Positions 22,037 to 56,940 of a DNA stretch of 64,000 nucleotides are shown here, piece by piece. The translations under genes were made by a program, and so were the position numbers. Within the stretch, counting starts at the first letter, position 1. Each line of letters begins with the position of its first letter. Source of the stretch: an uncultured Clostridia bacterium (lineage in GTDB: Bacteria; Bacillota; Clostridia; Christensenellales; CAG-314); the NCBI GenBank assembly GCA_947625725.1, contig CANQPI010000001.1, forward strand, positions 106,324 through 170,323, given 5' to 3'. The notes under the pieces were generated by a model. That model was not told the DNA's origin and searched no databases. It saw only the letters and a program-made list of their open reading frames with translations.

Positions 22037-22103
22037 TGACGGAACGTTCTGCATTTTGTAAACGTGCCCGTATTGAAATAACATACCAAAGGAGAACAAA
22101 ATC

Positions 22104-35323: not shown

Positions 35324-35352
35324 TTGACTGTCTTTTACAGTTATGGTATAAT
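35324..35352 (+). promoter_or_regulatory. Sigma-A promoter of the RDD-ABC-nuclease operon
   Basis: TTGACT-17-TATAAT with extended -10 TG. Confidence 0.75.
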
Positions 35353-35506
35353 TGTAAGGCTAAGGATTTGTTAGTATAATTATGCTTAAATTTGCGCTTT
35401 GCGCGTGATGGCAATATTTTTTCGGAGGAACTGATGTTCGGTTCGTCGATAGGAACGTACGGGAGGAACTGTGCGGCAGGCGACGTTCGGGCATGGGGAA
35501 TATGGC

Positions 35507-36382
35507 ATGATTTACGACGTGCAAAAAGCCGGCGTGCTAAAAAGATTTTCAGCGTTTTTGTTGGATTTTATATTGCTTTGCGTATTGGCGGCGGGGTTTG
35601 CGTTTCTGCTGGCGTGGATTACGCAAGTGGACAAGTACACTGATACGTTGCACGGCTACTACGAGGAGTACGGGCAAAAGTACGGCGTGGATTTTGACAT
35701 TTCCGCAGAGGACTACAACAAACTGACGGACGAACAAAAGGACGTGTACCAAGAAGCGTATTCGGCGATTTTCAGTGAAAACCGCGACGCAGCCAAGGCG
35801 TACAAGATGTCGATAATGTTGCCCATACTCATCACGACGATAAGCCTTTTGCTTTCGTACATAATTTTGGAATTTGTAGTGCCGCTTTGTCTTAAAAACG
35901 GTCAGACCGTGGGCAAAAAGGTGTTCAGTTTGGGAGTGGTGTTCAACAACAGCGTACGCATAACGACCTTTGCGCTGTTTGTACGAGCCATATTGGGCAA
36001 ATATACCATAGGGACGATGTTTCCCGTGATGCTGATAATGTTGATGTTGTATCAACAAATGGGTGCGATTATCGTATTGGTATTGGTTGCGGCGTTGGTG
36101 ATTTTGCAATTGGCATTGTTTATCTTTACCAAGACGCACTCGTTCATTCACGACATATTGGCAAGCACGGTGGTAGTGGACCTTTCCTCGCAGATGATAT
36201 TCGAGTCCACTCAGGAGTTGATCGCCTACAAAGAGCAACTCAGCCGCGAGCAAGCGGAGCGCGAGGGCAAAACTCACTCGTCCGAACAACCCGTCAATTT
36301 GGACGACGTGCCCGTCGGCGAGGAACAAGCCTACATTGACAAGGCGCGCGCCGAGTCCAAAAAGTCCAAGAAAAAAAGATAA
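35507..36382 (+). CDS. RDD family membrane protein
   Basis: KRFSAFLLD, GQTVGKK, IHDILASTVVVD; start could be GTG 35471. Confidence 0.85.
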   Translation: MIYDVQKAGVLKRFSAFLLDFILLCVLAAGFAFLLAWITQVDKYTDTLHGYYEEYGQKYGVDFDISAEDYNKLTDEQKDVYQEAYSAIFSENRDAAKAYKMSIMLPILITTISLLLSYIILEFVVPLCLKNGQTVGKKVFSLGVVFNNSVRITTFALFVRAILGKYTIGTMFPVMLIMLMLYQQMGAIIVLVLVAALVILQLALFIFTKTHSFIHDILASTVVVDLSSQMIFESTQELIAYKEQLSREQAEREGKTHSSEQPVNLDDVPVGEEQAYIDKARAESKKSKKKR

Positions 36383-36403
36383 CACACTGTATCGGGGGTA
36401 AGA

Positions 36404-37150
36404 ATGGAAAAAATCATTTACAAAAAAGTTACCGTATCGGTCGGAAGCAGCGACGACAGCGTGTCGATCCATTGTATTCGGTTGAAGGGCGACGAAAAAT
36501 TGGAAATAGGCGAGCAAATCACCGTTCGCGGAGAATTGAAACGTCGCGACAGCCAATTGGAGTTCGGCAACGGATGTTCCTTTGTAAAGGACGCCGACGG
36601 ACTAGTCGCCGACCCGAGCGTCGTTTCCGCATTGAGAGATCTGCCCGAGGGAGAGTTCTACGCCGAGGGCTTTTGCGCGCTTACGGGTACGGTTTCGGTG
36701 ATAGAAAAAGTGCAAAACGACGTTCCGCAAAAAACCACCTACCTCATCGGTTCGTTGGCAATGTTTGTCGCCGCCGTATTCTACATGTTGATGTCCGATT
36801 TGTCTTTCAAAAATACTGCGGACAGGTTGATAATTTCGGTGCTGTTGGCGTTTGGCAGCGCGATACTGTTCTTTTTGTCAGTAAACTTTACCGAGAAACC
36901 CGTCGTCATGTGGATATTCAAAGGATTGGGGTTGGCATTGGGTATAGGTTTCGTGATATACTTGCACATTTTCCAACAATCCGATACGTTTGACGCCATT
37001 TTGGAAGTTTTCCGCAAAAAAGGCATTTCGGGCGAATACGAACTGTTGATGTCGCAGGTAACAATGATAGTCACGCTTGTACTCAGTTACATTTCTGTTG
37101 CGGGACAGGCGGCAAATACGGTGCTTGTCGCAGTGATAAAAGACAAGTAA
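36404..37150 (+). CDS. Membrane protein with N-terminal OB-fold-like domain and ~4 TM helices
   Basis: LEIGEQITVRGEL OB-like strands; hydrophobic C-terminal half. Confidence 0.65.
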   Translation: MEKIIYKKVTVSVGSSDDSVSIHCIRLKGDEKLEIGEQITVRGELKRRDSQLEFGNGCSFVKDADGLVADPSVVSALRDLPEGEFYAEGFCALTGTVSVIEKVQNDVPQKTTYLIGSLAMFVAAVFYMLMSDLSFKNTADRLIISVLLAFGSAILFFLSVNFTEKPVVMWIFKGLGLALGIGFVIYLHIFQQSDTFDAILEVFRKKGISGEYELLMSQVTMIVTLVLSYISVAGQAANTVLVAVIKDK

Positions 37151-37194
37151 AAGCAAAACAATTCAAGTAAAACAATATAAGGACGGAAAAAAAC

Positions 37195-38328
37195 ATGAAA
37201 GTTGTGTTGAAAGAACTAACCAAAATCTTTCCCGGCAGAACAAAAAAAGCGCCGGAAGTCGTTGCTGTCAACAAATTCGATTTTGAGATCCCGGACGGAA
37301 AATTGGTCGGATTGTTGGGACCTTCGGGCTGCGGCAAAAGTACCACGTTGTACATGATTTGCGGTTTGCAAAAGCCAAGCAGCGGCAAAATATTCTTCGG
37401 CGACGACGACGTTACCGAACTTTCGCCGGAAAATCGCGGGGTGGGGTTGGTTTTCCAAAACTACGCGCTGTACCCGCACATGACGGTCAAGCAAAACATT
37501 TTGTTCCCGTTGCAAAACTTCAAGGGTGCGGACAGACTCTCCAAGTCGGAGATGTTGGAGCGCGCCTACAACGTGGCAAAGTTGGTGCAGATCGACGACC
37601 TCATGGACCGCAAACCCAGCGAACTGTCCGGCGGACAGCAACAGCGCGTCGCCATTGCACGCGCACTTGTTAAGATGCCCAGAGTTTTGCTTTTGGACGA
37701 GCCGCTGAGCAACCTTGACGCTCGTCTGCGTTTGCAAACGCGCGAGGAAATCAAACGTATCCAACGCGAAACGGGCATCACAACGGTATTCGTCACTCAC
37801 GACCAGGAAGAAGCAATGTCCATTTCCGACGTCATTGTGGTGATGAAGTTGGGCGTGGTGCAACAAATAGACAAACCGCAAAACGTCTACGACGATCCCG
37901 TCAATTTGTTTGTTGCCAAGTTCCTCGGCACGCCGCCCATCAACGTTTTTGAGGGGCATGTCGTCGGCGGCAAGTTGTATATCGGCGAGGATTGCGTTTT
38001 GGACGTGGACGGCGTGGAAGATCAGGACGTATTTGTCGGTATCCGTCCGGAAGGTTTCATCTACGACAAAAAAGGTTCTTTCCACTGCGCTTTGCGCAAC
38101 GTAGAGGTTATGGGGCGCGACGTATCCATTGTTTCCACCAACGAGGCTTCGCTCAATCCGATAATTCGTTCGATAGTGGACGCCGACAACAAGATAGACG
38201 TTTCGGCGGAAAAAGTTTCCTTCACCCTCAAACCCCACAAGGTATTTATATTCAACAAGGAAACGGAAGCGCGTATTCGCTTTGGCAAGAGCGAGCAAAA
38301 CTCCCAAACAACAAGCAAGGAGGAGTAA
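37195..38328 (+). CDS. CUT1/MalK-type ABC ATP-binding protein
   Basis: GPSGCGKST, VFQNYALYPHM, LSGGQQQR, LDEPLSNLD. Confidence 0.95.
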   Translation: MKVVLKELTKIFPGRTKKAPEVVAVNKFDFEIPDGKLVGLLGPSGCGKSTTLYMICGLQKPSSGKIFFGDDDVTELSPENRGVGLVFQNYALYPHMTVKQNILFPLQNFKGADRLSKSEMLERAYNVAKLVQIDDLMDRKPSELSGGQQQRVAIARALVKMPRVLLLDEPLSNLDARLRLQTREEIKRIQRETGITTVFVTHDQEEAMSISDVIVVMKLGVVQQIDKPQNVYDDPVNLFVAKFLGTPPINVFEGHVVGGKLYIGEDCVLDVDGVEDQDVFVGIRPEGFIYDKKGSFHCALRNVEVMGRDVSIVSTNEASLNPIIRSIVDADNKIDVSAEKVSFTLKPHKVFIFNKETEARIRFGKSEQNSQTTSKEE

Positions 38329-38331
38329 TAC

Positions 38332-39282
38332 ATGGTAGACGGCAAAAAACAATGGAAGGCTTGGCTGTACCTGTCGCCCGTTATCATACTGACGTTGGTA
38401 TTCACTGTCTGGCCGATAATCAACACCGTGCGTATCGCCTTTCTCGACGACTACACCTTGATGGACGACGTCGGCGGAATGACGTTCTCGGTGGGCATAC
38501 ATAACTTCGAAAAAGTCATCAACTATCCGGAGTTTCTCACCTGCCTCAAAAACACTCTGTTGCTCACGGTCATTACGGTACCCATTTCGACCTTTTTGGC
38601 ATTGCTCATTGCAGTATGCCTCAACTCCATCAAAGCGCTTAACAGATTGTTGCAAACTATCTACTTTTTGCCCTATGTCACCAACACCATAGCGATAGGT
38701 ATCGTGTTCTCCACGATGTTCAGCATGGTCGGTACGGGCTTTGGCGGTGCGAACCCCTATGTCAGTACCGCAGGTATCATCAACAACATAATCGGCATTT
38801 TCGGTATCGAACCGGTCAATTGGGTCAACACGGGCTCAACTTATTGGGCAAATATGTTTGTAATGTGCGTGTACATCGTTTGGAACGCGTTGCCTTTCAA
38901 GATACTCATTTTGCTGGGCGGTTTGCAAAGCGTCAACAAGCAGTACTACGACGCCGCCAAAGTGGACGGCACGGGTCGTGTGCGTACTTTCTTCCGTATC
39001 ACCGTACCCATGCTCAGCCCCATGCTCGCCTATGTAGTTATCACGGGCTTTATCGGCGGTTTCAAAGAATACAGCAGCATCGTCGGTGTGTTCGGAGAGG
39101 AAATGGGACCTGCCGGCAACGAGGGCGCGCTCAACACAATGGTAGGATTTATCAACCGCAACTTGATGAGCGGCTCTCCGAGAGAGGGCATTGCAAGTGC
39201 GGGCGCGATACTTTTGTTTATCATAATTTTTGCCGTGACAATGCTCAACATGTATGTCAGCAAAAAGAGAGTTCACTACTAA
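38332..39282 (+). CDS. ABC permease (MalF/UgpA-like)
   Basis: YYDAAKVDG EAA loop, multiple TM helices. Confidence 0.93.
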   Translation: MVDGKKQWKAWLYLSPVIILTLVFTVWPIINTVRIAFLDDYTLMDDVGGMTFSVGIHNFEKVINYPEFLTCLKNTLLLTVITVPISTFLALLIAVCLNSIKALNRLLQTIYFLPYVTNTIAIGIVFSTMFSMVGTGFGGANPYVSTAGIINNIIGIFGIEPVNWVNTGSTYWANMFVMCVYIVWNALPFKILILLGGLQSVNKQYYDAAKVDGTGRVRTFFRITVPMLSPMLAYVVITGFIGGFKEYSSIVGVFGEEMGPAGNEGALNTMVGFINRNLMSGSPREGIASAGAILLFIIIFAVTMLNMYVSKKRVHY

Positions 39283-39293
39283 GGAGAGTTACT

Positions 39294-39344
39294 ATGACGC
39301 AAAACTTTTCGTACATAGCCGCAACGGCGGCTTTTCGGAGGTGA
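39294..39344 (+). CDS. Putative 16-aa peptide MTQNFSYIAATAAFRR
   Basis: AAGGAG RBS; stop lies inside the GGAGGTGA RBS of the next gene. Confidence 0.35.
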   Translation: MTQNFSYIAATAAFRR

Positions 39345-39348
39345 GTAT

Positions 39349-40512
39349 ATGACAAACTTGCTTTCTTTGTCCCAAGGCGGCACGGTCGCCCTCGGAGTAA
39401 TATTCGGCATAGTGATCCTGTTGGAACTCTGTTACATAGGTTATCTGTGCTATTTGCGCGCAACGGGTCGCAAACACTTTTCTTTGCGCCGCGAACGGCA
39501 AACGGCGACCTCAGGCGTTGAAACCCAACCCGACGACGGCTTTGCCCTCACGACCGAGTCCCTCGGCGATACCAAGGCGCTTGGCAAAGGCGTAATGAAA
39601 GAGCGCAATATCGAAACGGTAAAAAAGGTTCAAAAAGCCGTCAAAATTATCGTCAAGATATTGATTTACATTTTCTTGATAGCGGTGGCGGTCAGCGTTC
39701 TGTTCCCCTTCTATTGGATGATCATTTCGTCGTTGAAGTCCTACGACGAGTACGCATTGGAGGGTGAATTTGCCAGCCGCGTATCGCCTACGTTCTTTCC
39801 GCAAACGGTTTTGTGGAGCAACTACGCCGAGGCGTTCAAAACGGCAAATCTGGGCACTCTGTTCCTCAACACCGTGTTTGTGGGTGTTGTTTCCACGATA
39901 CTGTCGCTTATCATAACCGTGCTTGCGGCGTTTGCCTTTGCTCGGTTGGAGTTTCGCGGCAAAAACGCGCTGTTTGCGGCGTTACTTGCCACAATGATGA
40001 TCCCGGGCGAGTTGTTTACTATCACCAACTACGGCACGGTCACTAACATTCTCGGTTGGGGCAACACTTATACGGCGCTTATTGTACCATTCCTTGTCAG
40101 CGTATTCTACGTCTATTTGTTGCGGCAAAACTTTTTGCAAATTCCCGACGAATTATATTACGCCGCCAAGGTGGACGGCACGAGCGACCTCAAATACCTG
40201 TGGAAAGTGATGATTCCTTTGGCGTTGCCAACGATCATTTCCATAACCATTCTCAAAATGATGGGTTCTTGGAACAGTTACATTTGGCCTCGCCTCGTTG
40301 CTAACGACGAATTGCACCAACTTATCACCAACGGTCTGCGCGACACTCAATTCAACGTATATTTGCCCGACGGCTCGATCGATCAGGACAAAATCAACTA
40401 TCCCGTGCAGATGGCGGCGGTAACATTGGTGTCGATACCATTGTTCCTTGTGTTTATATTCCTGCGCAAGTACATAATGAAAGGCGTCAGCCGCAGCGGA
40501 CTCAAAGGTTAA
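39349..40512 (+). CDS. ABC permease (MalG/UgpE-like) with N-terminal extension
   Basis: PFYWMI, ATMMIPGE, YYAAKVDG, WNSYIWP. Confidence 0.93.
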   Translation: MTNLLSLSQGGTVALGVIFGIVILLELCYIGYLCYLRATGRKHFSLRRERQTATSGVETQPDDGFALTTESLGDTKALGKGVMKERNIETVKKVQKAVKIIVKILIYIFLIAVAVSVLFPFYWMIISSLKSYDEYALEGEFASRVSPTFFPQTVLWSNYAEAFKTANLGTLFLNTVFVGVVSTILSLIITVLAAFAFARLEFRGKNALFAALLATMMIPGELFTITNYGTVTNILGWGNTYTALIVPFLVSVFYVYLLRQNFLQIPDELYYAAKVDGTSDLKYLWKVMIPLALPTIISITILKMMGSWNSYIWPRLVANDELHQLITNGLRDTQFNVYLPDGSIDQDKINYPVQMAAVTLVSIPLFLVFIFLRKYIMKGVSRSGLKG

Positions 40513-40578
40513 AACTGTCTTGTACAGTTTTTATAGAGTAACATTTCAGCAACAAATATTCAAAAAAAGGAGAACTGT

Positions 40579-42045
40579 ATGAAAAAAACTATTGCAATCA
40601 TTTTGGCAGTGCTGCTTGTCGTATCGGCGATATTCGTACTTGCCGCTTGCAAGCCAAATCGCAGAGCCGAATTTGTGCTTCCAGAGGGAGGCTACGACGG
40701 CAGTGCCGTTACCATCACTTTCATTTCGAGTATGGGACAGAGTTACGGCGTGCTTTTGGATGAATTTCTTGCAAGATTCAAGGAAATGTATCCCAACATA
40801 ACCGTCGATCACCAACGCGGCGGCGACTATGACAGCAACCGCGACGTCATCAAAACGCAATTGGGCAACAATCAAGCGCCCAACCTTGCGTTCTGCTACT
40901 CCGACCACGTGGCTCTTTACAACAGATCCAAGGCGGTGGTGGCGCTGGACAGCCTGATCGAAAGCGACATCGAGCAAACTCGCGCCGACGGCACTAAGGA
41001 GAGATTGGGCTTGACCGACGCGCAAAAAGCCGACTTTATCCAAACCTACTACAACGAGGGCAAGGCTTTCGGCGACGACAAGATGTACATGATCCCGTTT
41101 GCAAAGTCCACCGAATTGATGTACTACAACAAGACTTCCTTCGATTCTTGGGAACTTCCCGTACCCGATCACTGGTTTGCCACCGACGGCAAGGAAGGTC
41201 TGCAAACAACCGACCATACAAGTATGGAATATGCGCTTGCTTTCATCAAGGACAAAGACCCCAATTCCACTCCGTTGGGAGTTGACTCCGGCGCAAACTG
41301 GCTCATTACTCTGTTTGAACAATTCCAAACGGGCTACACCAAGGCTACCGATCCTCATTATCTGTTTGACAACGAAGCCAACTACGACATTCTGACAACG
41401 CTTAGAAGATGGTATCAAAACAACTGGTTTACCACCAGACAGTTGCTAAACGGCACTTACACCAGCACGTACTTTACGTCTTCAAGCAGCGACCAAGGCA
41501 AAAAGTCCTACATTTCCATAGGTTCTTCGGCAGGTGCGGCAAAGCAAGTTCCTGCCGAGAGCGCAAACTTCGACGTAGGCGTTACGATCATTCCGCAAAA
41601 AGAGGCAAACACTCCCATTGCTCAATCCAAAGTTATTTCGCAAGGACCGAGCGTGTGCCTGTTCAACTCCGACAACCCGCAGGAAGTTGTAGCAAGTTGG
41701 TTGCTTGCCAAGTTCCTTGTTACCAATGCGGAGTTCGAAGCGCGCTACGGCATGGACGCAGGCTATTTGCCCGTAATTCAATCCGTACAGGATTTGGACG
41801 GTTACAAACAAAAGTTGGACGAAGCCGACACCAAGGAAAACATGGCTGGTATGGCTGCCAAGTTGTGCTTGGAGTACAAAGACGCTTTGTTTGTTTCTCC
41901 CGCTTTCTACGGTTCTTCCGAAGCCCGTGACCAAATGGACGTTTTGCTCAACAAATGCGTTATCGTAACGGGCAACAGCGCTGACGCTATCAGACAAGGC
42001 ATCATTGCCGAGTTCAAAAACGCCCTTGCTATTTGCGAGTATTAG
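40579..42045 (+). CDS. ABC substrate-binding lipoprotein (family 1)
   Basis: Lipobox LAAC, IPFAKSTE, QGPSV, GYLPV. Confidence 0.88.
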   Translation: MKKTIAIILAVLLVVSAIFVLAACKPNRRAEFVLPEGGYDGSAVTITFISSMGQSYGVLLDEFLARFKEMYPNITVDHQRGGDYDSNRDVIKTQLGNNQAPNLAFCYSDHVALYNRSKAVVALDSLIESDIEQTRADGTKERLGLTDAQKADFIQTYYNEGKAFGDDKMYMIPFAKSTELMYYNKTSFDSWELPVPDHWFATDGKEGLQTTDHTSMEYALAFIKDKDPNSTPLGVDSGANWLITLFEQFQTGYTKATDPHYLFDNEANYDILTTLRRWYQNNWFTTRQLLNGTYTSTYFTSSSSDQGKKSYISIGSSAGAAKQVPAESANFDVGVTIIPQKEANTPIAQSKVISQGPSVCLFNSDNPQEVVASWLLAKFLVTNAEFEARYGMDAGYLPVIQSVQDLDGYKQKLDEADTKENMAGMAAKLCLEYKDALFVSPAFYGSSEARDQMDVLLNKCVIVTGNSADAIRQGIIAEFKNALAICEY

Positions 42046-42063
42046 TACGCGAGGTTATTCAAA

Positions 42064-43497
42064 ATGAAAAAAACAGCATTAGTTTTGGTCCTTTTGTTGG
42101 CGTTTGGCGCGTGCATTGGGTTGTTCGCGGCATGCGAGCCCAAGCCCGACCACGAACACACTTGGGTCAACGGCGTTTGCACACAGTGCGACGCCAAGTA
42201 CGAGATTGTGGACTATGTTTCCCAACTCAAATTGGACGAAAATTCTGCCACAAAAAAATATACGACTAACAGCAATTTTGTCCGTATGTACATCGACGGC
42301 GACACAACGCACTTCAACGTTCCGACAACGGCCGATCACCCCGACGGCGTACTCAAAGCGCGTTACCTTGCAGTCAACACTCCCGAATCTACGGGACAAG
42401 TAGAGCCCTACGGCAAGGTTGCGTCCAACTACACCAAGAAAAAGTTACAAGACGCGATCGCTAACGGTGGCGCGGTGCTTGTCGAGTCCGATACCGACGA
42501 CGGCAAGTGGAACAACGACAGTTATGGCAGAACGACCGCTTGGGTATGGTACAAACCCGAGGCAAACGCCGATTGGCGCAACCTCAATTTGGAACTGCTT
42601 CAAGAGGGTTTGGGCTTCGGTTCTGACCCCAGCAGCAACCGCTACGGCGAAAAATGTCTTGCCGCGCTCAATCAAGCGATGCAGGCAAAACTTGTAGTTC
42701 ACTCCGGCGTCAAGGACGAAAACTACTACTACGGTGCGGCGCAGGAGATCACCATCAAGGAACTCCGCACCAATTTTGAGAAATATGAACTTGTAAAAGT
42801 GGCGTTCGAGGGCTACGTAACGTCAAGTTACGACGGCACAAGTTACGTTCAGCAGTACGACGAGGAAGACGGCATTTCGTACGGCATTGCCGTGTACTAC
42901 AACGGATCTGCTTCCGACATCAAGAAGGCTCTTTCTCCCGGCAGTCACGTCCGCGTGGTAGGCACTGCCCAAGACTTCAACGGCACTTGGCAAGTTTCCG
43001 GTTTGTCCTACAACATCATCAACACCAAAGACCCCAACAACACCATCAGGTTGGATACCGAAACTCACAATGTCGAACCTATGGAGTTGACGATCGATCA
43101 GTTCAATGCCAACAGAACGGTAGATGTGGTTGATCACACTGCGGAAGGCGAGGAAACCGTGTATGTTCCCAAGACTTATCCGACTCACACCTTGTTGGTG
43201 GGAACCACGGTCAAGATGGTCAACCTTATCGTAGATCACACCTACACAACGCCGGACGGCACAAGTAAGGACGCTTTTACCCTGTACTGCAAGGACAGCA
43301 GCGGCAAGGAAATCACCGTTCGCACCGAAGTGCTGTTCAAGTGGAACGATCAAACTCAACGTAGCGAACTTGTTACCGCGGACGAATTCGAGGGTCAAAC
43401 GATCACCGTTATCGGTATTGTCGATTGGTACAACTACAACAATCACAACGAATATCAACTCCGCATACTCGATTACAAAAACATAGTCATTATTTAA
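42064..43497 (+). CDS. Thermonuclease (SNase) family lipoprotein with C-terminal OB-like domains
   Basis: Lipobox FAAC; IDGDT, RYLAVNTPE, DSYGR, NLELLQEG. Confidence 0.88.
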   Translation: MKKTALVLVLLLAFGACIGLFAACEPKPDHEHTWVNGVCTQCDAKYEIVDYVSQLKLDENSATKKYTTNSNFVRMYIDGDTTHFNVPTTADHPDGVLKARYLAVNTPESTGQVEPYGKVASNYTKKKLQDAIANGGAVLVESDTDDGKWNNDSYGRTTAWVWYKPEANADWRNLNLELLQEGLGFGSDPSSNRYGEKCLAALNQAMQAKLVVHSGVKDENYYYGAAQEITIKELRTNFEKYELVKVAFEGYVTSSYDGTSYVQQYDEEDGISYGIAVYYNGSASDIKKALSPGSHVRVVGTAQDFNGTWQVSGLSYNIINTKDPNNTIRLDTETHNVEPMELTIDQFNANRTVDVVDHTAEGEETVYVPKTYPTHTLLVGTTVKMVNLIVDHTYTTPDGTSKDAFTLYCKDSSGKEITVRTEVLFKWNDQTQRSELVTADEFEGQTITVIGIVDWYNYNNHNEYQLRILDYKNIVII

Positions 43498-43553
43498 GAC
43501 TGACAAAAGTATAAAAAGCGCAAAACGCTTAAAAATAAAAAAAGGAGAGTATT

Positions 43554-45248
43554 ATGAAGAAAAAAATTGCATTGTTACTTGCAGTAGTGCTGGTTGTGGC
43601 AACATTCGGAATGGTTCTTGCCGCTTGCGACAAGGGACCCTCTGCCGACGCACTCCAAGCGCTCCTCACAGAAGTAAACAAGTATCACCGCAGTGACCCC
43701 ACGCTTACCAATTCAAACTTCAATTTGATTGGTAGGATCTCCACGATCACCGACGAAGGCGAGGTAGAGGTAAACGTATCTTGGAAGTCCAGTTCTGACA
43801 AAATAACCATTTCTTCCGAAATGAACGGCGCAGGTTTCTACACGGTTACTATTCCCGACCGTACAACTTTGACGGAAGATATCGATTATACCCTCACGGC
43901 AACTCTCGTTGACGCCAAGGGCAAAGAGTACAAGGATGCCGACGGCAAAACTTACTCCATAACATTCAGCAGAACCGTAACCGCCTCCGGCGCTGCCCAA
44001 GCGACTTTGACCTTTGACAGCATCACAAAGGCAACCACAGGCGAAGCGAATACCGACCAATACGGCTATGCAGGTTTCCTGTCCATTACTTGGCAGGAAA
44101 ACGACGTTACTTTCTTGAACGAAAAGGACGAGTCGTATAGCGCTTGCACCACAAGTTATATCAATCCTGCTCGTATCTATGCGTTCAGCAAGGTAGAAAT
44201 ATCCTACGTAAAGCCCATCAAGTACATCAAGCTCGAAACTCAAAGCGGTAATGAACAAGGACTTGACGGAGTGACTGTTGAGGGCGGTACGGTACAACGT
44301 GCCGAAACTACCATCATCATTACGATGGATCAACCGGCAGAAAAAGTGACGTTTATCCCCAAAAAGCAATTGCGTATCTACACGGTCGACGTGTACACGG
44401 CAGAAGCGACGCCGCCCGTTTTGCCCACGATTGACGACACTGTTTACGAAACCGAAGACGAGATTATCGCGGCTTTGAAACAACTCGAAAGCGGCAAGAC
44501 TCTTTCCAATGGACACACGTATACGTTGACGGGTACTATCGCCTCGATCGACACTAAGTATAATTCTCAATTTGGCAACATAACTGTTACTATAAATGTC
44601 GGCTCTGAGAACTACCCAATTCAATGCTTCCGTTTGGTAGGCGGTGAGGATTTGGCAGTCGGTGATACGATCACAGTTACAGGCGTTCTCAAAAACTACG
44701 ATGGCAAAATCGAATTTGACGCAAAATGCACCTATGTCAAAGGTGGCGGCAGTGATGTCGGCGGTGGCGACGACGATACGACTTTGACAAGTCCCGTTAC
44801 TATCAAGAGCAATCAAACAACGACTACCAACCTTACAGGAACAAACGACAAGGATAAGTTCGATTTCACTTCCGGCAAAGGATTGTTCACTATCGTTGGC
44901 ACAAAGGTAAGCGGCGGCAATAACGTCGGCATGAACAAAGACGGCACAGTCAGACTGTACAAAAACGGTACGACTACGCTCACCATCAGCATTGCACAAG
45001 GTTATGTGATTGACAGCGTTACTATCAAGTACAAAACGGGCAACACTTATGGCGATACCATTGCTCCGCCCGTAATAATGGTGGGAGAAGACACTGTTAA
45101 TGCAACAGGCGACGCTACGACCATTGAGGAATACATTTCTTCGCTAACGTGGAATATCAACGGTCAATCGTTTGTTATTACCAATACGGACACGGCAAAT
45201 CAAGTTCACATTGTTGAGATCATTGTGACTTGCCACCAAGCGGCGTAA
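43554..45248 (+). CDS. Lipoprotein with Ig-like and OB-fold-like domains
   Basis: Lipobox LAAC; LAVGDTITVTGVLKNY. Confidence 0.7.
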   Translation: MKKKIALLLAVVLVVATFGMVLAACDKGPSADALQALLTEVNKYHRSDPTLTNSNFNLIGRISTITDEGEVEVNVSWKSSSDKITISSEMNGAGFYTVTIPDRTTLTEDIDYTLTATLVDAKGKEYKDADGKTYSITFSRTVTASGAAQATLTFDSITKATTGEANTDQYGYAGFLSITWQENDVTFLNEKDESYSACTTSYINPARIYAFSKVEISYVKPIKYIKLETQSGNEQGLDGVTVEGGTVQRAETTIIITMDQPAEKVTFIPKKQLRIYTVDVYTAEATPPVLPTIDDTVYETEDEIIAALKQLESGKTLSNGHTYTLTGTIASIDTKYNSQFGNITVTINVGSENYPIQCFRLVGGEDLAVGDTITVTGVLKNYDGKIEFDAKCTYVKGGGSDVGGGDDDTTLTSPVTIKSNQTTTTNLTGTNDKDKFDFTSGKGLFTIVGTKVSGGNNVGMNKDGTVRLYKNGTTTLTISIAQGYVIDSVTIKYKTGNTYGDTIAPPVIMVGEDTVNATGDATTIEEYISSLTWNINGQSFVITNTDTANQVHIVEIIVTCHQAA

Positions 45249-45306
45249 GTAATTGTATCTACGCGTAACGCGCATTGCCTTGCGCTTCGCGCAACTGCAA
45301 ACTTTT

Positions 45307-45338
45307 GGACTCCCGACCCCTCGGGAGTCCTTTTCTTT
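45307..45338 (+). terminator. Intrinsic terminator of the ABC-nuclease operon
   Basis: GGACTCCCGA/TCGGGAGTCC plus T run. Confidence 0.85.
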
Positions 45339-45551
45339 CTCCTACACGCTTTATCTTCCCCATTTTATTACAAATTTCTTAAGCAAAACACAGCAAATTT
45401 CTTAAATGGTTTGACTTGTCCCTTTGTGCCGCATTGTCAAATTCCGTGCAACCCCTTGTATTTTTGCAGTTTTTTGTATTTGTTGTTGCGCCGCAAGGGG
45501 CAACGTGCGTTGTCTTGCATTTTGGCGCGTTTTGTGCTACACTGTGATTAT

Positions 45552-46799
45552 ATGCGATCATTCACCTACGCAAATCAAGTTTTGCCCTATCTCAACAGCC
45601 TTTACGGGCGCAAAAATATCGCCGAGTTTCGCCGTTACGACGCTGCTATCAAAGAGTTCGGACGCGTTTTCGGCGGCAAAAGCCTCGGCTTTGTCAGTGC
45701 GCCGGGGCGCGTGGAGTTTATCGGCAATCATTTGGACCACAACGGCGGCAAGGTAATTGCCTGTACCGTCAATTTGGATATCGTCGCGGCGTTTGCCCCC
45801 ACCGACAACAACGTCATTCGCATTGCAGGCAAGGGGCGTAGCACGCTTCGCGTTCCCGTGGGCGATTTTGAGCCCTGTTTCGGCAGTGCGGGACTTATCA
45901 AAGGCGTGGTGCAGTACCTGTCCGAGCATGGTTATTCCGTGGGCGGATTTGACGCCTACACCGATTCGACTATCCCCACGGGCGCGGGTATCAGCAGTAG
46001 CGCGGCGTTCGAATTGGCTGTCGGTACTATCCTTTCCGAGTTGTACAACGGCGGCGGTATTCCCTCCGACGTTCTTGCGCGCGCGGGACAGTTTGCGGAA
46101 AACGTGTTTTTTTCCAAACCGTGCGGACTTTTGGATCAAAGCGTAATCGCGATCGGCGGCGTTGTGGCGTTGGACTTTTCCGACGGCTTGCGCTATACCC
46201 GTCTGGATGGCAATTTGGACGGTTTGTCCCTTGCGCTTGTAAACAGCGGCGGCAGTCATGCGTTCCTGTCCGAGATGTATGCGGCTATTCCCGCCGATAT
46301 GCGCGCCGTAGCCCGTTTTTTCGGACGCGAGCGGTTAATAGATTTGCCGCCCGACGAGTTTTTTGCCCGCTACTATCAAGCGGCAAAGTCCGTCGGCGAG
46401 GACAAGGTTTTGCGCGCCAAACACTTTTTTGACGAACTTGCGCGCGTCGAGCAAATGCAGACCGCGCTTTGCGGCGACGGGACGTCTGACGGCAGCGGCA
46501 TTGTCCCCGATCGCGCAAAAATTCTTTCTCTCATTAACGATTCGGGCGACAGCAGCCTCACCCAACTGAAAAATTGCGCCGTCAACGCCGACGACACGGC
46601 GATAGCCGACATTGTTGCATTTGCCCGTTCTGTTTGTCCCTGCGCCGCGCGCGTACACGGAGGCGGATTTGCGGGCACGGTGCTTTGCGTTGTACCCGAC
46701 GAGTACTTTGGCGTGTTTTTCTCCGAAGCCACCGCCAAGTACGGGAGCGACAGAGTGTTGCCGTTGCGCTTGCGCTTTGTCGGCGCAACCGTCTTGTGA
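45552..46799 (+). CDS. galK: Galactokinase-like GHMP kinase
   Basis: APGRVEFIGNHLDH, GAGISSSAA, CGLLDQ, HGGGFAG. Confidence 0.75.
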   Translation: MRSFTYANQVLPYLNSLYGRKNIAEFRRYDAAIKEFGRVFGGKSLGFVSAPGRVEFIGNHLDHNGGKVIACTVNLDIVAAFAPTDNNVIRIAGKGRSTLRVPVGDFEPCFGSAGLIKGVVQYLSEHGYSVGGFDAYTDSTIPTGAGISSSAAFELAVGTILSELYNGGGIPSDVLARAGQFAENVFFSKPCGLLDQSVIAIGGVVALDFSDGLRYTRLDGNLDGLSLALVNSGGSHAFLSEMYAAIPADMRAVARFFGRERLIDLPPDEFFARYYQAAKSVGEDKVLRAKHFFDELARVEQMQTALCGDGTSDGSGIVPDRAKILSLINDSGDSSLTQLKNCAVNADDTAIADIVAFARSVCPCAARVHGGGFAGTVLCVVPDEYFGVFFSEATAKYGSDRVLPLRLRFVGATVL

Positions 46800-47105
46800 G
46801 GGCATATAGGCGTCGCAATGCTGTGTTAAACGTGCGCCCCGCTCAGTCGCACGTCGTTGTACGCGCCTCCCGCCGCCCCGCCCGTTTGTCTTGCCTTTCT
46901 CGCTTCTATGCCCTCACAAGGGGTATATTTTTGTATTTTGCCCTTTTGCTTTGACCGATTTTGCAATGCTTTGTTAAACGACCGCCCCGCCCGTTTGTCT
47001 TTCGCGAGGTTGGTGCTTTTGGGGGAGTATTTCGACGATACGGAAGATGAGTTTTGTCATCAAAAGTAAATTAAAAATTGTTATTCCTCTCCCGCCTCTC
47101 CATAT

Positions 47106-47214
47106 TTTCTGCACATTTTTAATCATTCCTCTGCATATTGTCCCGATAAAATATGCAGAGAATTGCATATTGCGGTTGACTTTCTGCACATTTTTGGATA
47201 TACTATATGCAGAG
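47106..47214 (+). promoter_or_regulatory. Fic promoter with five TCTGCA(C/T)AT boxes
   Basis: TTGACT-17-TATACT at 47176-47204; boxes in both orientations. Confidence 0.7.
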
Positions 47215-47221
47215 GTGTATC

Positions 47222-48265
47222 ATGAAGCGTTTTGACTACTCATTTTTGTACAACGGAATGTTACCTGCGCGTCTTGTCAACATGACAAGCGGAATTTACT
47301 CTTTCAAATCGGAGGACAGCCGCCGTCGGCGAGATTACCGCAAGGTTTTTGACAGTTTGCAACAGATCGCGCGCGTACAATCGGTCAAAAGTTCCAACGC
47401 CATAGAGGGCATTGTCGCTTCCGATGATCGAATTCGCGCCATAGTTACCAAAAGCAGCGCACCCGTGGATCACACCGAAGCGGAAATCGCAGGCTATCGC
47501 GACGCGTTGGACGTCATTCACACAAATTGGCGAGATATGGATTTTACGGAAAGAAACATTTTGTCCCTGCATGCCACAATGTTCGCCGCTGTTGGCTATG
47601 AGCAAGCGGGTCATTACAAGCAAAATGACAATTTGATAATCGAACAGGACGCGCAAGGCAACAGAAAGGTGCGTTTTGTACCCGTACCCGCCGTCGAAAC
47701 GCCCGAGGCAATGGTGCAATTGGTATTGGCATATTTGGACGCTCGCTCCGATCCCAACATCAATCAACTGTTACTCATTCCCTGCGTTATTTTGGATTTT
47801 TTGTGTATTCACCCCTTTGCGGACGGCAACGGACGTCTTTCGCGCTTGTTGAGTCTTTTGTTGCTGTATCGCAGCGGCTTTGACGTGTGCAAGTACGTTT
47901 CATTTGAGCAGCAAATAGACAACTACAAATCGCTGTACTACCAAGCGTTGCAAGATTCGTCAGTCGGCTGGCAGGACAACGCCAACGACTACATGCCTTT
48001 TGTGGAGAACTTCCTTGCCACGCTGTACATGTGCTACAAGGAAATGGACCGTCGCTTTGCCGTTGTAAACACAGGCGCGTCCAAGACAAATCGCATCGAA
48101 ACGACAGTACTCAACAGCCTTGTGCCTATATCAAAGGCGGAAATATGCGCCGTTCTGCCTGACGTAAGTCCCACAACGGTAGAGAGCGTTTTGGGCAAGT
48201 TGGTGCGGCAAGGCGCAGTTGTCAAGGTGGGCGCGGGTTCCGCTACAAGATATATCCGCAAATAG
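47222..48265 (+). CDS. Fic family protein (class II) with C-terminal winged-HTH
   Basis: HPFADGNGRLSR catalytic motif; SNAIEG inhibitory motif. Confidence 0.92.
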   Translation: MKRFDYSFLYNGMLPARLVNMTSGIYSFKSEDSRRRRDYRKVFDSLQQIARVQSVKSSNAIEGIVASDDRIRAIVTKSSAPVDHTEAEIAGYRDALDVIHTNWRDMDFTERNILSLHATMFAAVGYEQAGHYKQNDNLIIEQDAQGNRKVRFVPVPAVETPEAMVQLVLAYLDARSDPNINQLLLIPCVILDFLCIHPFADGNGRLSRLLSLLLLYRSGFDVCKYVSFEQQIDNYKSLYYQALQDSSVGWQDNANDYMPFVENFLATLYMCYKEMDRRFAVVNTGASKTNRIETTVLNSLVPISKAEICAVLPDVSPTTVESVLGKLVRQGAVVKVGAGSATRYIRK

Positions 48266-56689: not shown

Positions 56690-56940
56690 TATAATCGTGT
56701 TTTGAGGCTCAATTTTTCGACTAGTAATTTGTAACAAAAACGTCGTTGTCGTTTACTTGCTCAAACACTATAACATCGTTGAAGCAACTTTTGCTATTGT
56801 TCAGATACTGTTGTTTTATTGTCATCATTTGCGTAACGGCAAAATTTGTTTTTTTTGCCGCGTTCGGTATTTTCCGACAATGTTGCCTCAAACGCTTGCA
56901 TTGTCGGCGCGTCGGTGCTACAATAAACTTACAACAACAA

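What the first reader, a model, noticed from the sequence alone, without database searches (positions are those of the whole stretch)
35507..45338. Candidate extracellular nucleic-acid harvesting operon
Seen: one promoter, then RDD protein, OB-membrane protein, ABC ATPase, two permeases, binding lipoprotein, SNase lipoprotein with OB-like domains and an OB/Ig lipoprotein, then a strong terminator. Known: SNase lipoproteins linked to sugar-type ABC transporters occur in Mycoplasma and are proposed to import nucleotides. Inference: a capture-cut-import system that pipelines would mislabel as sugar ABC, with extra RDD and OB components I do not know to be described.
Basis: partly seen in the sequence, partly recalled or inferred. 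Interest (0 to 1): 0.75.

Follow-up and report, generated by a model that had tools for sequence, protein, structure and literature searches.

The report
Surface nuclease plus nucleotide-fragment importer operon
A small-genome gut Clostridia bacterium that appears unable to make its own nucleotides carries a tightly conserved operon that most likely binds DNA or RNA at the cell surface, cuts it, and imports the small fragments, much as proposed for mycoplasmas but with extra parts.

Summary
Eight co-oriented genes (35471/35507-45248) lie between a conserved promoter-like site and a strong terminator: an RDD membrane protein, a small membrane protein, a UgpC/MalK-type ABC ATPase, two CUT1 permeases, an SBP lipoprotein, an SNase lipoprotein with two OB folds, and an OB/beta-sandwich lipoprotein.

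The linkage is conserved across 68 SNase clusters from genomes and metagenomes: SBP 57 of 58 testable, ATPase 22 of 23, RDD 20 of 20, downstream lipoprotein 48 of 51.

The SBP profile's best solved relative is the Thermus thermophilus dinucleotide (U3G)-binding protein 7C0F. UgpB comes next and sugar binders follow.

The 93%-complete genome gave no purF, purM, purH, pyrB, carB or pyrE above cut-off, and no Bmp or NupC. In a 151-genome order sample, 7 of 8 SNase carriers lack purM and pyrB, against about 15% of non-carriers.

Best reading (0.7): extracellular nucleic acid is captured, cut and imported, probably as di- or oligonucleotides.

This is the Clostridial counterpart of the Mycoplasma P80/MslA-SNase-ABC operon, so it is a known kind, and this scan has already met such loci twice. 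New here are an RDD subfamily found only with this operon, the OB additions, and the dinucleotide-binder link. No biochemistry was done.

The parts
35324..35352 (+). Promoter-like site: TTGACT, 17-nt spacer, TG-extended TATAAT
   Evidence: 11 of 12 consensus matches, TG present. The same -35 and extended -10 are conserved in L001 and L002. No transcription start data.
35353..35470 (+). Leader region; no known riboswitch
   Evidence: Rfam gathering and E-value scans found nothing relevant. Fold z-score is -1.98. The window and L001 carry about 75 nt here that L002 lacks.
35471..36382 (+). g1: RDD-family membrane protein. The start is either GTG 35471 or ATG 35507, which gives 303 or 291 aa.
   Evidence: PF06271, 41.9 bits against a cut-off of 24.1. 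R13, D20 and D216, and the NGQTxGKK motif, are invariant in 20 of 20 homologues. It is the first gene of the operon in 20 of 20 testable clusters. The subfamily profile hits only SNase carriers, 6 of 151 genomes.
36404..37150 (+). g2: 248-aa protein with four hydrophobic segments; its N-terminus carries a piece of the g8 OB module
   Evidence: No Pfam family. aa 9-62 match g8 aa 345-396 at 46% identity, E 2e-11. Four TM-like segments. The full form is seen only in L001 and L002. The TM part alone (142-155 aa ORFs) lies next to the RDD gene in L035, L046 and L072.
37195..38328 (+). g3: ABC ATPase of the UgpC/GlcV/MalK type with a C-terminal regulatory domain
   Evidence: ABC_tran E 4e-37; weak CysA_C_terminal and OB_MalK hits. 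UgpC 339.8 bits, below its equivalog cut-off of 432. Relatives share 72-97% identity over near-full-length matches; 55-70% in partial, contig-end matches.
38332..39282 (+). g4: permease (UgpA/MalF-like)
   Evidence: BPD_transp_1 E 1e-17. Present in 25 of 26 testable clusters.
39349..40512 (+). g5: permease (UgpE/MalG-like) with an extra N-terminal TM segment specific to this lineage
   Evidence: BPD_transp_1 E 9e-20. Present in 29 of 30 testable clusters. Relatives outside L001 and L002 align only from about residue 73-95 onward.
40579..42045 (+). g6: CUT1 substrate-binding lipoprotein; candidate binder of di- or oligonucleotides
   Evidence: SBP_bac_8 and SBP_bac_1. Lipobox LAAC. The family profile's best PDB match is 7C0F, the U3G-binding protein, at E 1e-22. 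S177, S316 and D109 align with residues mutated in the 7C0F variant entries.
42064..43497 (+). g7: SNase lipoprotein with two C-terminal OB folds
   Evidence: PF00565. Model pLDDT 88.7. aa 62-214 match 1sta at Z 16.2, rmsd 2.3 A over 132 residues; OB1 is aa 222-335 and OB2 is aa 337-477. The equivalents of D21, R35, T41, E43 and R87 are invariant; the D40 equivalent is N in 30 of 30.
43554..45248 (+). g8: surface lipoprotein made of a beta-sandwich, a CBM-like beta-sandwich, an OB fold and a poorly modelled C-terminal domain
   Evidence: Lipobox LAAC. Model pLDDT is high for aa 30-398 and below 50 for 399-564. OB fold at aa 297-401, Z 7.1-8.5. Most of the 120 listed homologues carry PF01336. 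A lipoprotein gene follows the SNase gene in 48 of 51 clusters.
45307..45340 (+). Intrinsic terminator-like hairpin plus T run
   Evidence: 10-bp stem, 7 GC pairs, 4-nt loop, tail TTTTCTTTCT.

Best explanation
This is an operon for harvesting extracellular nucleic acid.

Proposed mechanism:
1. The OB-fold lipoprotein g8 and the two OB folds of the nuclease g7 hold DNA or RNA at the outer face of the membrane (inferred from folds).
2. The SNase domain of g7 cuts the polymer into short 3'-phosphorylated mono-, di- and oligonucleotides. This is inferred from an intact SNase active site and from what is known of staphylococcal nuclease.
3. The lipoprotein g6, a CUT1 binding protein of the phosphodiester-binding branch, picks up the small fragments, most likely dinucleotides or short oligonucleotides (inferred from its nearest solved relative).
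4. g6 delivers them to the g4/g5 permease pair, driven by the g3 ATPase (inferred from family membership).
5. In the cytoplasm, NrnA-like DHH/DHHA1 enzymes and SurE could turn the fragments into nucleosides and 5'-nucleotides (such genes are present; their role is inferred).

The organism needs this supply because it appears to lack de novo purine and pyrimidine synthesis.

The RDD membrane protein g1 is a dedicated, co-inherited membrane component of the system. Its role is unknown. My guess is an accessory or regulatory partner of the transporter.

What is shown: gene content, folds, conserved residues, conserved linkage, and the co-occurrence pattern. What is inferred: every biochemical step.
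For: - Synteny. Across 68 SNase clusters (85% identity) from 87 loci: SBP 57 of 58 testable, permeases 29 of 30 and 25 of 26, ATPase 22 of 23, RDD 20 of 20. A same-strand ORF follows the SNase gene in 48 of 51 clusters that have at least 500 nt after it. A lipobox regex matched 50 of the 51 ORFs examined.
- Downstream lipoproteins. 29 of the 41 scanned carry aBig_2 and/or the tRNA_anti-codon OB domain.
- SNase. Z 16.2 to staphylococcal nuclease, plus two nucleic-acid-type OB folds. Catalytic residues are invariant in 30 of 30.
- SBP. The profile's best PDB match is 7C0F (83 bits, E 1e-22), ahead of UgpB (62 bits) and sugar SBPs (53 bits or less). 7C0F is the U3G dinucleotide-binding protein (PMC12718374, main-text passages and SI Table S5). 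Three of the four residues mutated in the 7C0F variant entries align with invariant S177, S316 and D109.
- Own genome, 93.3% complete. purF, purM, purH, pyrB, carB and pyrE gave no hit above cut-off. No Bmp and no NupC. One SNase.
- Order sample of 151 genomes. SNase in 8. purM and pyrB above cut-off in 1 of those 8, against 120 of 143 and 122 of 143 non-carriers.
- RDD. The subfamily profile hits 6 of 151 genomes. All six are strong SNase carriers, with the RDD gene 5.3-6.5 kb upstream on the same contig and strand.
- SBP specificity. All profile hits of 400 bits or more lie next to an SNase gene.
- Cytoplasmic processing genes. Two NrnA-size DHH/DHHA1 genes and surE are clustered on another contig.
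- RNA libraries. Contigs from two RNA libraries match g7 and g8 with 0-1 differences.
- Precedent. The same model is published for Mycoplasma P80/MslA-SNase-ABC operons (PMC3585158 passages; PMC4045577 passages).
Against: - No enzyme, binding or transport measurement exists for any of these proteins.
- The D40 equivalent of the SNase is Asn in all 30 aligned members, so metal use and activity could differ from the staphylococcal enzyme.
- The SBP match to 7C0F is partial (profile positions 48-126 and 168-402), and one of the four mutated 7C0F residues (a Tyr) is not conserved.
- Every NCBIfam hit of the SBP is far below its cut-off.
- One carrier, G439, keeps purM and pyrB. About 15% of non-carriers lack them without having this operon.
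- Carriers are few and related: 4 of 8 belong to one genus.
- Bmp nucleoside binders occur in 4 of 8 carriers, so in those genomes the operon is not the only possible route.
- The genome also encodes a surface-anchored 5'-nucleotidase-family enzyme. This leaves nucleosides open as the imported species.
- g8's OB match (Z 7.1-8.5) lies at the level the tool calls common. Its middle domain resembles carbohydrate-binding modules at about the same Z.
- The RNA evidence consists of contigs only and shows neither a single transcript nor its ends.
Confidence: 0.7

Rival explanations
1. Same system, different cargo. The transporter imports nucleosides or mononucleotides, not di- or oligonucleotides. 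The SNase products would first be trimmed and dephosphorylated at the surface, for example by the membrane-anchored 5'-nucleotidase-family enzyme encoded elsewhere, and g6 would bind the resulting nucleosides or NMPs.
For: A 569-aa Metallophos plus 5_nucleotid_C protein with a signal peptide and a C-terminal TM anchor is encoded on contig C25, next to a lipoprotein that resembles the N-terminal domain of g8. No Bmp or NupC transporter was found to take up nucleosides, so this ABC system would be the obvious candidate.
Against: The nearest solved SBP binds a dinucleotide and has the largest pocket of the phosphate-binding CUT1 group (PMC12718374 SI Table S5). No phosphatase gene lies in the operon in any of the loci mapped. 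The cytoplasmic NrnA-like and SurE genes fit processing of phosphorylated fragments after import.
Confidence: 0.15
2. The ABC transporter imports a non-nucleotide phosphodiester or sugar, such as glycerophosphodiesters (as Ugp does) or an oligosaccharide. The nuclease and OB lipoproteins serve another purpose, such as clearing extracellular DNA from mucus, biofilm matrix or host traps. The genes would be linked only for co-expression at the surface.
For: All 31 SBPs hit the UgpB model, and 31 of 31 hit a carbohydrate SBP model, all below cut-off. The g3-g5 genes are generic CUT1 parts. The middle domain of g8 resembles carbohydrate-binding modules (Z 7.2-8.1).
Against: Such strict two-way linkage over 38-82% SNase identity is hard to explain without a shared substrate. 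The SBP scores better against the dinucleotide binder than against UgpB or any sugar binder. The carriers are strongly enriched for loss of nucleotide synthesis.
Confidence: 0.1
3. The RDD protein and g2 are not parts of the machine. They would be unrelated membrane proteins, for example an ion antiporter like the Halobacillus RDD protein, that merely share the promoter.
For: One characterised RDD protein is reported as a Na+(Li+,K+)/H+ antiporter (PMC5996927, search listing; PMC7568657 passage). g2 is confined to the closest relatives.
Against: This RDD subfamily was found only in genomes with the operon, and always as its first gene: 20 of 20 clusters, and 6 of 6 strong carriers against 0 of 143 non-carriers. 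That pattern argues for a dedicated role. B. subtilis SppI shows that RDD proteins can act as partners in membrane complexes (PMC7568657 passage).
Confidence: 0.2

Closest known systems
Mollicutes P80/P81/MslA - SNase lipoprotein - ABC transporter operons (M. agalactiae MAG_5030-5070, M. bovis MBOVPG45_0307-0311, M. gallisepticum MslA, M. hyopneumoniae mhp379)
   Same: - An SNase-family lipoprotein lies next to a 'sugar-type' ABC ATPase, two permeases and an SBP-like lipoprotein.
- The hosts are nucleotide auxotrophs.
- The published model has a surface protein binding nucleic acid, a nuclease cutting it, and an ABC system importing the precursors (PMC3585158 passages; PMC4045577 passages; PMC12115388 passage).
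- 28 of 31 SBPs here give sub-threshold hits to NCBIfam's Mycoplasma-type 'P68 family surface lipoprotein' model.
   Different: - Gene order differs. Here it is RDD-ATPase-permeases-SBP-SNase-lipoprotein; there it is SBP-SNase-ATPase-permeases.
- Here the nuclease carries two C-terminal OB folds.
- Here a separate, size-variable OB/Ig lipoprotein follows the nuclease.
- Here an RDD protein heads the operon.
- I could not fetch Mycoplasma sequences, so homology of the parts was not tested directly.
- The primary papers on MslA and mhp379 were not held.
Thermus thermophilus dinucleotide (U3G)-binding protein of a CUT1 ABC transporter (PDB 7C0F and variant entries)
   Same: - It is the best solved-structure match of the g6 family profile (E 1e-22, 83 bits).
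- It belongs to the phosphate-recognising branch of CUT1, together with UgpB and the GPC-binding protein (PMC12718374 passages and SI Table S5).
- The Ser-containing motifs PxxKS and xxSAG, and the GYVPV motif, are shared.
   Different: - The alignment leaves out a roughly 40-residue insert of the g6 family (profile positions 127-167).
- One mutated Tyr of 7C0F is not conserved here.
- I know of no nuclease linkage for the Thermus protein.
- The original paper (Chandravanshi et al. 2021, FEBS J) was not read, only cited through PMC12718374.
UgpBAEC glycerophosphodiester / glycerol-3-phosphate importer
   Same: The ATPase, permeases and SBP give their best or near-best NCBIfam hits to UgpC, UgpA, UgpE and UgpB. 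The architecture is the same CUT1 type.
   Different: All scores are far below the equivalog cut-offs (UgpB 42.8 against 411; UgpC 339.8 against 432). No glycerophosphodiesterase gene is present. Linkage to a nuclease is not a Ugp feature.
Bacillus subtilis YhcR-type wall-anchored nucleases (OB folds plus SNase plus 5'-nucleotidase)
   Same: A surface-attached SNase domain is combined with nucleic-acid-type OB folds. JGI names several g7 homologues 'endonuclease YncB / DNA/RNA endonuclease YhcR'.
   Different: The YhcR architecture and properties are recalled, not tested here. g7 is a lipoprotein with its OB folds C-terminal and has no fused nucleotidase. YhcR is not, to my knowledge, tied to an ABC importer.
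Izemoplasma (Xianfuyuplasma coldseepsis) DNA-degradation locus
   Same: A gene cluster with a thermonuclease, other nucleases, phosphohydrolases and ABC transporters, in a bacterium shown to grow better with added DNA (PMC8397711 passages).
   Different: That locus is larger and includes EddB and phosphate transporters. Its gene-by-gene relation to this operon was not examined.

Membership tests
SNase / thermonuclease family (PF00565) | Sequence match to the family model above the curated cut-off | tested here: met
   38.7 bits against a cut-off of 21. It is the only copy in the genome, 41.8 bits.
SNase / thermonuclease family (PF00565) | SNase fold | tested here: met
   Model aa 62-214 against 1sta: Z 16.2, rmsd 2.3 A, 132 aligned residues, 30% identity.
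SNase / thermonuclease family (PF00565) | Catalytic and metal-binding residues. The S. aureus numbering (D21, R35, D40, T41, E43, R87) is recalled; the alignment comes. | tested here: inconclusive
   D80, R100, T106, E108 and R156 are invariant in 30 of 30. The D40 position is Asn (N105) in 30 of 30. Five of six residues are kept. The effect of the invariant Asn on metal use is unknown.
SNase / thermonuclease family (PF00565) | Metal-dependent nuclease activity | not testable with these tools
   Needs an enzyme assay.
CUT1-type binding-protein-dependent ABC importer | ABC ATPase, two BPD_transp_1 permeases and a family-1 SBP encoded together | tested here: met
   Pfam ABC_tran, BPD_transp_1 twice, and SBP_bac_1/SBP_bac_8. 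The order is conserved across loci.
UgpB (sn-glycerol-3-phosphate SBP equivalog, NF008211) | Score above the equivalog cut-off | tested here: not met
   42.8 bits against a cut-off of 411. All 31 family members hit, but the best E-value is only 2.8e-21.
Dinucleotide (U3G)-binding SBP, 7C0F type | Closest solved relative by sequence profile | tested here: met
   7C0F and its variant entries rank first (E 1e-22, 83 bits), ahead of UgpB at 62 bits.
Dinucleotide (U3G)-binding SBP, 7C0F type | Conservation of the residues that the depositors mutated (presumed ligand contacts) | tested here: inconclusive
   Three of the four visible mutated positions align with invariant residues of similar chemistry (S177, S316, D109). 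One Tyr aligns with a variable position. That these residues contact the ligand is my inference.
Dinucleotide (U3G)-binding SBP, 7C0F type | Binds dinucleotides | not testable with these tools
   Needs ITC, DSF or a crystal structure of g6.
Mycoplasma-type nuclease-ABC nucleotide-scavenging operon | An SNase lipoprotein gene adjacent to the ABC transporter genes and an SBP-like lipoprotein gene | tested here: met
   The feature is defined from PMC3585158.
Mycoplasma-type nuclease-ABC nucleotide-scavenging operon | Co-transcription of nuclease, SBP and transporter genes | tested here: inconclusive
   One promoter-like site, gaps of 3-66 nt and one terminator. RNA-library contigs cover 27 of 30 bins in X10, but contigs cannot show a single transcript.
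Mycoplasma-type nuclease-ABC nucleotide-scavenging operon | Host lacks de novo nucleotide synthesis | tested here: met
   The six marker families gave no hit above cut-off in the 93.3%-complete genome, while the control genomes gave hits.
Mycoplasma-type nuclease-ABC nucleotide-scavenging operon | Sequence homology of the SBP to P80/MslA | tested here: inconclusive
   Only an indirect test was possible. The NCBIfam 'P68 family surface lipoprotein' model is hit by 28 of 31 SBPs (best E 4.4e-12; g6 scores 20 bits against a cut-off of 200). That P68 equals the P80/MslA family was not checked.
RDD family (PF06271) | Family model match, and the conserved Arg and two Asp | tested here: met
   41.9 bits against a cut-off of 24.1. 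R13, D20 and D216 are invariant in 20 of 20.
OB-fold nucleic-acid-binding domain (PF01336-like), in g8 | Family model match in g8 itself | tested here: not met
   No Pfam hit at E <= 0.01. Most of the 120 listed homologues carry PF01336 in the precomputed annotation.
OB-fold nucleic-acid-binding domain (PF01336-like), in g8 | OB fold by structure | tested here: met
   Model aa 297-401 match MCM-N, AsnRS, LysRS, PolC, SSB and RPA OB domains at Z 7.1-8.5 and rmsd 2.5-3.4 A over 78-96 residues. The Z values are near the tool's 'common arrangement' level, so this rests on the fold together with the Pfam hits in homologues.

The most novel reading that the evidence does not exclude
Gut Clostridia carry a Gram-positive 'nucleic-acid utilisation locus', built on the same logic as polysaccharide utilisation loci.
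- A fast-evolving, size-variable OB/Ig surface lipoprotein (about 340 to 1600 aa) captures the polymer.
- An OB-tethered SNase processes it.
- A CUT1 importer takes up intact dinucleotides or short oligonucleotides, a cargo class not established for ABC importers in vivo.
- A dedicated RDD-family protein serves as an obligatory extra membrane subunit. This would give the first operon-defined role for an RDD subfamily.

On this reading the locus is what allows repeated loss of de novo purine and pyrimidine synthesis in these gut lineages.
Probability: 0.3. Interest if true: 0.7.

Novelty: new variant of a known kind. Interest (0 to 1): 0.45.

Why it matters
If the reading holds, three things follow.

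1. Many uncultured, small-genome gut Clostridia would depend on extracellular DNA and RNA from diet, host cells, phage lysis or other microbes. They would take it up as short phosphorylated fragments through genes that annotation pipelines label as sugar transport. The g7 search returned at least 4441 relatives at E <= 0.001. That bears on designing culture media for these organisms, on metabolic models of the gut community, and on the fate of free DNA in the gut.

2. It gives a concrete, testable substrate class (dinucleotides or oligonucleotides) for a branch of the CUT1 family. It also links an isolated structural finding in Thermus, the U3G-binding protein, to a physiological context.

3. 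It offers the cleanest genomic handle I have seen on an RDD-family protein, a widespread family with almost no assigned function.

The principle itself, a nuclease plus an ABC importer for nucleotide scavenging, is not new.

Tried and rejected
- Complex prediction. Complex prediction of the RDD protein against the g4+g5 permease pair, using alignments A3, A4 and A5, scored 0.00 against a mark of 0.32. The tool gave no verdict, so this says nothing either way.
- Genetic code 4. It gave no better reading than table 11, and GC is about 50%.
- ESM Atlas. For g2 there was no usable hit. For g8 the best score was 0.88, a lead only, pointing to aBig_2 / OB lipoproteins.
- Foldseek of the whole g8 model against the PDB. 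Only weak multi-domain beta-sandwich matches (TM 0.1-0.19) and one LysRS OB hit. VIA-align superseded it.
- PDB sequence search with g8. Nothing.
- Riboswitch in the leader. None found. The leader fold is only mildly better than shuffles (z -1.98).
- Complementarity with Bmp nucleoside transporters. Not seen: Bmp is present in 4 of 8 carriers and in 74 of 151 genomes overall.
- g7 against g8. No significant sequence similarity, so their OB folds are not recent duplicates.
- The 869-aa ORF on contig C25 against g8. Not significant.
- Mapping the 'two Tyr, two Ser' phosphate ligands of UgpB (PMC12718374) onto g6. I could not bring the 9LFF alignment into view, so only the Ser motifs are argued, and only through 7C0F.
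- Primary Mycoplasma papers PMC3754236 and PMC1855908. Not held.
- RNA-library coverage. Three of 30 bins in X10 and 18 of 30 in X13 had no cover. This is not evidence of absence.
- Literature searches for a description of the RDD link, or of this operon in Clostridia. They found nothing relevant beyond the Izemoplasma locus. Subscription journals are mostly not covered.

Full report
**What is there.**
The window has about 50% GC and reads cleanly under table 11; table 4 gives nothing better. Eight ORFs lie head to tail on the + strand between 35471 and 45248, with gaps of 3-66 nt.

Pfam and NCBIfam name six of them:

| Gene | Coordinates | Assignment |
|---|---|---|
| g1 | 35471/35507-36382 | RDD family, 41.9 bits against a cut-off of 24.1 |
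| g3 | 37195-38328 | ABC ATPase, closest to UgpC/GlcV/MalK |
| g4, g5 | 38332-39282, 39349-40512 | BPD_transp_1 permeases, UgpA/MalF-like and UgpE/MalG-like |
| g6 | 40579-42045 | family-1 solute-binding protein |
| g7 | 42064-43497 | SNase, 38.7 bits against a cut-off of 21 |

g2 (36404-37150) and g8 (43554-45248) match no family. g6, g7 and g8 start with lipoprotein signal peptides (LAAC, FAAC, LAAC).

A TG-extended promoter-like site lies at 35324-35352 and a 10-bp-stem terminator at 45307-45330. The promoter is conserved in the two closest relatives.

The neighbouring genes are ordinary chromosomal ones: glmS upstream, then a GHMP kinase and a Fic protein downstream.

A GTG at 35471 with a GGGAGG Shine-Dalgarno sequence is an alternative start.

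**Folds of the unnamed parts.**
- The AlphaFold model of g7 (pLDDT 88.7) has three domains. The SNase domain (aa 62-214) matches staphylococcal nuclease 1sta at Z 16.2, rmsd 2.3 A over 132 residues. Two OB folds follow. OB1 (aa 222-335) matches AsnRS at Z 12.3, MCM at 11.2 and RPA at 10.8. OB2 (aa 337-477) matches PolC at Z 11.7 and the Ta0387 OB domain at 10.8.
- I aligned g7 to S. aureus nuclease and to 29 family members. The equivalents of D21, R35, T41, E43 and R87 are invariant. The D40 position is Asn in 30 of 30. The residue numbering is recalled.
- The g8 model is confident for aa 30-398 and poor beyond that. It shows two beta-sandwich domains; aa 145-285 resemble carbohydrate-binding modules at Z 7.2-8.1. 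An OB fold follows at aa 297-401, matching MCM, AsnRS, LysRS, PolC, SSB and RPA at Z 7.1-8.5. These Z values are near the tool's background level. The OB assignment is backed by PF01336 in most of the 120 listed g8 homologues.
- g2 has four hydrophobic segments. Its N-terminus matches the second half of the g8 OB module (46% identity, E 2e-11). It is therefore a lineage-specific chimera rather than a standard 'OB-membrane protein'.

**Is the linkage conserved?**
The g7 search returned at least 4441 relatives at E <= 0.001.

I collected 4 loci from species-representative genomes, 3 from a class sample, and the best 80 of 368 confirmed metagenome hits. These 87 loci group into 68 clusters at 85% SNase identity.

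I counted only clusters with enough flanking DNA:

| Gene next to the SNase | Present / testable clusters |
|---|---|
| SBP | 57 / 58 |
| permease g5 | 29 / 30 |
| permease g4 | 25 / 26 |
| ATPase | 22 / 23 |
| RDD | 20 / 20 |

The exceptions are L084, which has no permease genes upstream of the SBP, and L082, which has only 423 nt of room.

A same-strand ORF starts right after the SNase gene in 48 of 51 clusters that have at least 500 nt of room. The misses are L008, which my script skipped because the match is on the minus strand, and L064 and L067. A lipobox pattern was found in 50 of the 51 such ORFs examined; one of these, an 84-aa fragment, is doubtful.

I scanned 41 of these ORFs, 341 to 1603 aa long, against Pfam:
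- 19 have aBig_2 and 16 have the tRNA_anti-codon OB domain; 29 have one or both.
- 2 have only other families.
- 10 have none.

The core is therefore RDD-ATPase-permease-permease-SBP-SNase-variable OB/Ig lipoprotein. g2 in its full form is seen only in L001 and L002. Its TM part alone lies beside the RDD gene in L035, L046 and L072.

**The reverse test.**
I used one evenly drawn sample of 151 genomes of the same order.
- The SNase query hits 8 genomes. Six hits are strong and two are weak or partial.
- The RDD-subfamily profile hits 6 genomes. All six are the strong carriers, and each RDD gene lies 5.3-6.5 kb upstream of the SNase gene on the same contig and strand.
- SBP-profile hits of 400 bits or more occur in seven carriers, always next to the SNase gene. 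The eighth carrier has a partial hit, also adjacent. Hits of 128-260 bits occur in six non-carriers and as a second copy in one carrier.

The linkage therefore holds in both directions. Across the class the system is sparse: 4 of 399 genomes.

**What does the binding protein bind?**
A profile of 31 SBPs scores as follows against PDB sequences:

| PDB entry | Protein | E-value | Bits |
|---|---|---|---|
| 7C0F and its variant entries | T. thermophilus U3G-binding protein | 1e-22 | 83 |
| 4AQ4 / 6X84 | E. coli UgpB | 3-5e-16 | 62 |
| 9LFF | UgpB | 4e-14 | |
| several | sugar binders | about 2e-13 and weaker | |
| 6R1B | M. tuberculosis glycerophosphocholine binder | 2e-9 | |

PMC12718374 identifies 7C0F as the T. 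thermophilus uridylyl-3'-5'-phosphoguanosine (U3G)-binding protein. It places it with UgpB and the GPC binder in a phosphate-recognising branch of CUT1. I read main-text passages and SI Table S5. The original FEBS J paper was not read.

The printed alignments let me compare the 7C0F entry with four point-variant entries. The substituted residues align as follows:
- Ser in PFNKS aligns with invariant S177.
- Thr in DTSAG aligns with invariant S316.
- An Asn aligns with invariant D109.
- A Tyr aligns with a variable position.

That these residues contact the ligand is my inference. NCBIfam equivalog cut-offs for UgpB and for sugar binders are missed by a wide margin.

The evidence therefore favours a phosphodiester-type ligand with a large pocket, which fits SNase products. 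It does not prove this.

**Does the organism need it?**
The genome is 1.68 Mb in 39 contigs and 93.3% complete.
- purF gave only a sub-threshold hit, to GlmS.
- purM and purH gave nothing.
- pyrB, carB and pyrE gave only sub-threshold hits.
- The same searches gave hits in 13-14 of 14 control genomes.
- No Bmp or NupC nucleoside transporter was found, and there is a single SNase gene.

In the order sample, purM is above cut-off in 121 of 151 genomes and pyrB in 123 of 151. Among the eight SNase carriers only G439 has them. That leaves 120 of 143 and 122 of 143 among non-carriers. The carriers span five genera, four of which lack both genes. Relatedness makes any statistical test optimistic.

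Bmp shows no complementary pattern: 4 of 8 carriers have it, against 74 of 151 overall.

Elsewhere in the genome (contig C25, locus L089) lie two NrnA-size DHH/DHHA1 genes and surE. On the other strand are a lipoprotein resembling the first domain of g8 (33% identity over 92 aa, E 2e-7) and a signal-peptide-bearing, C-terminally anchored 5'-nucleotidase-family protein. These fit a nucleotide-scavenging lifestyle. They also keep open the possibility that nucleosides or mononucleotides are the cargo.

**Expression.**
DNA runs labelled rabbit gut metagenome hold up to 0.90 of the sampled words of the operon. Two RNA libraries hold 0.35 and 0.13.

Laid contigs of RNA library X10 cover 27 of 30 bins. 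They include pieces with 0-1 differences over g7 and the start of g8. X13 covers 12 of 30 bins. These are contigs, so they show presence in an RNA library. They do not show a single transcript or its ends.

**Comparison with what is known.**
The closest described system is the Mollicutes operon: SBP-like lipoprotein P80/P81/MslA, an SNase lipoprotein, an ATPase and two permeases. M. agalactiae transcribes it as one RNA, and its authors propose nuclease-fed import with P80 as the binding protein (PMC3585158 passages). MslA is reported to bind single- and double-stranded DNA, and the M. bovis genes are called a putative nucleotide transporter operon (PMC4045577 passages; see also the PMC12115388 passage). 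An Izemoplasma DNA-degradation locus also combines a thermonuclease with ABC transporters (PMC8397711).

Two earlier reports of this scan described similar loci in other genomes and judged them a known kind. My tests agree with that.

What differs here:
- the gene order;
- two OB folds fused to the nuclease;
- a separate, highly size-variable OB/Ig lipoprotein;
- the RDD protein.

My searches found no paper linking RDD proteins to such an operon. The two characterised RDD proteins I could document are a Halobacillus cation/proton antiporter and B. subtilis SppI, a partner and inhibitor of the SppA protease (listing; PMC7568657 passage).

I could not fetch Mycoplasma sequences. Shared ancestry therefore rests only on sub-threshold hits of 28 of 31 SBPs to NCBIfam's 'P68 family surface lipoprotein' model.

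**Verdict.**
The locus is a Clostridial variant of a known kind of system.

Three points are worth following up: the operon-exclusive RDD subfamily, the tie to a structurally characterised dinucleotide binder, and the association with loss of nucleotide synthesis.

| Claim | Confidence |
|---|---|
| General function | about 0.7 |
| Di- or oligonucleotides as the cargo | about 0.4 |
| RDD is a physical subunit | unknown |

Noticed in passing
L089 (own genome contig C25:13500-23872): A second nucleotide-related cluster. On one strand are two tandem DHH/DHHA1 (NrnA-size) genes and surE. On the other strand are a 178-aa lipoprotein resembling the first domain of g8, an 869-aa ORF with no family directly after it (possibly one gene split by a stop or frameshift), and a surface-anchored Metallophos/5'-nucleotidase protein.
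   Followed up: partly
window 56938-57061: An FMN riboswitch (105.5 bits, above the gathering score) lies directly before an ECF-transporter S-component gene (about 56985-57995). This is probably a riboflavin uptake gene.
   Followed up: no
window 49010-53850: A second ABC system. Its ATPase has a TOBE domain, and its 561-aa binding lipoprotein hits the Mycoplasma 'MG045 family' lipoprotein model. This is another Mollicutes-like surface protein in this small Clostridia genome.
   Followed up: no
window 8590-25769 and 58490-63336: A run of very large ORFs (484-1516 aa) that carry InlB B-repeat / Listeria-Bacteroides repeat domains or no family at all. The last 6 kb of the window drops to about 38-40% GC, against about 50% elsewhere.
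   Followed up: no
window 35420-35506: The window and L001 carry about 75 nt between the ancestral ribosome-binding site and the RDD ATG that L002 lacks. The segment repeats the GGAGGAACTG motif and opens a short out-of-frame ORF. It may be a small duplication or a leader peptide.
   Followed up: partly
window 39349-39630: Permease g5 has an extra N-terminal hydrophobic segment and a roughly 65-residue basic linker. These are found only in the closest relatives (L001, L002).
   Followed up: partly
L014 4754-6514 and L018 4753-6513: In one human-gut lineage the ATPase ORF is 587 aa. It carries about 230 extra C-terminal residues that the window's ATPase lacks.
   Followed up: no
window 45411-48265: After the terminator come a GHMP/galactokinase-like gene with an N-terminal extension of about 80 aa, and a Fic-domain gene. 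These neighbours are not conserved in L001.
   Followed up: no
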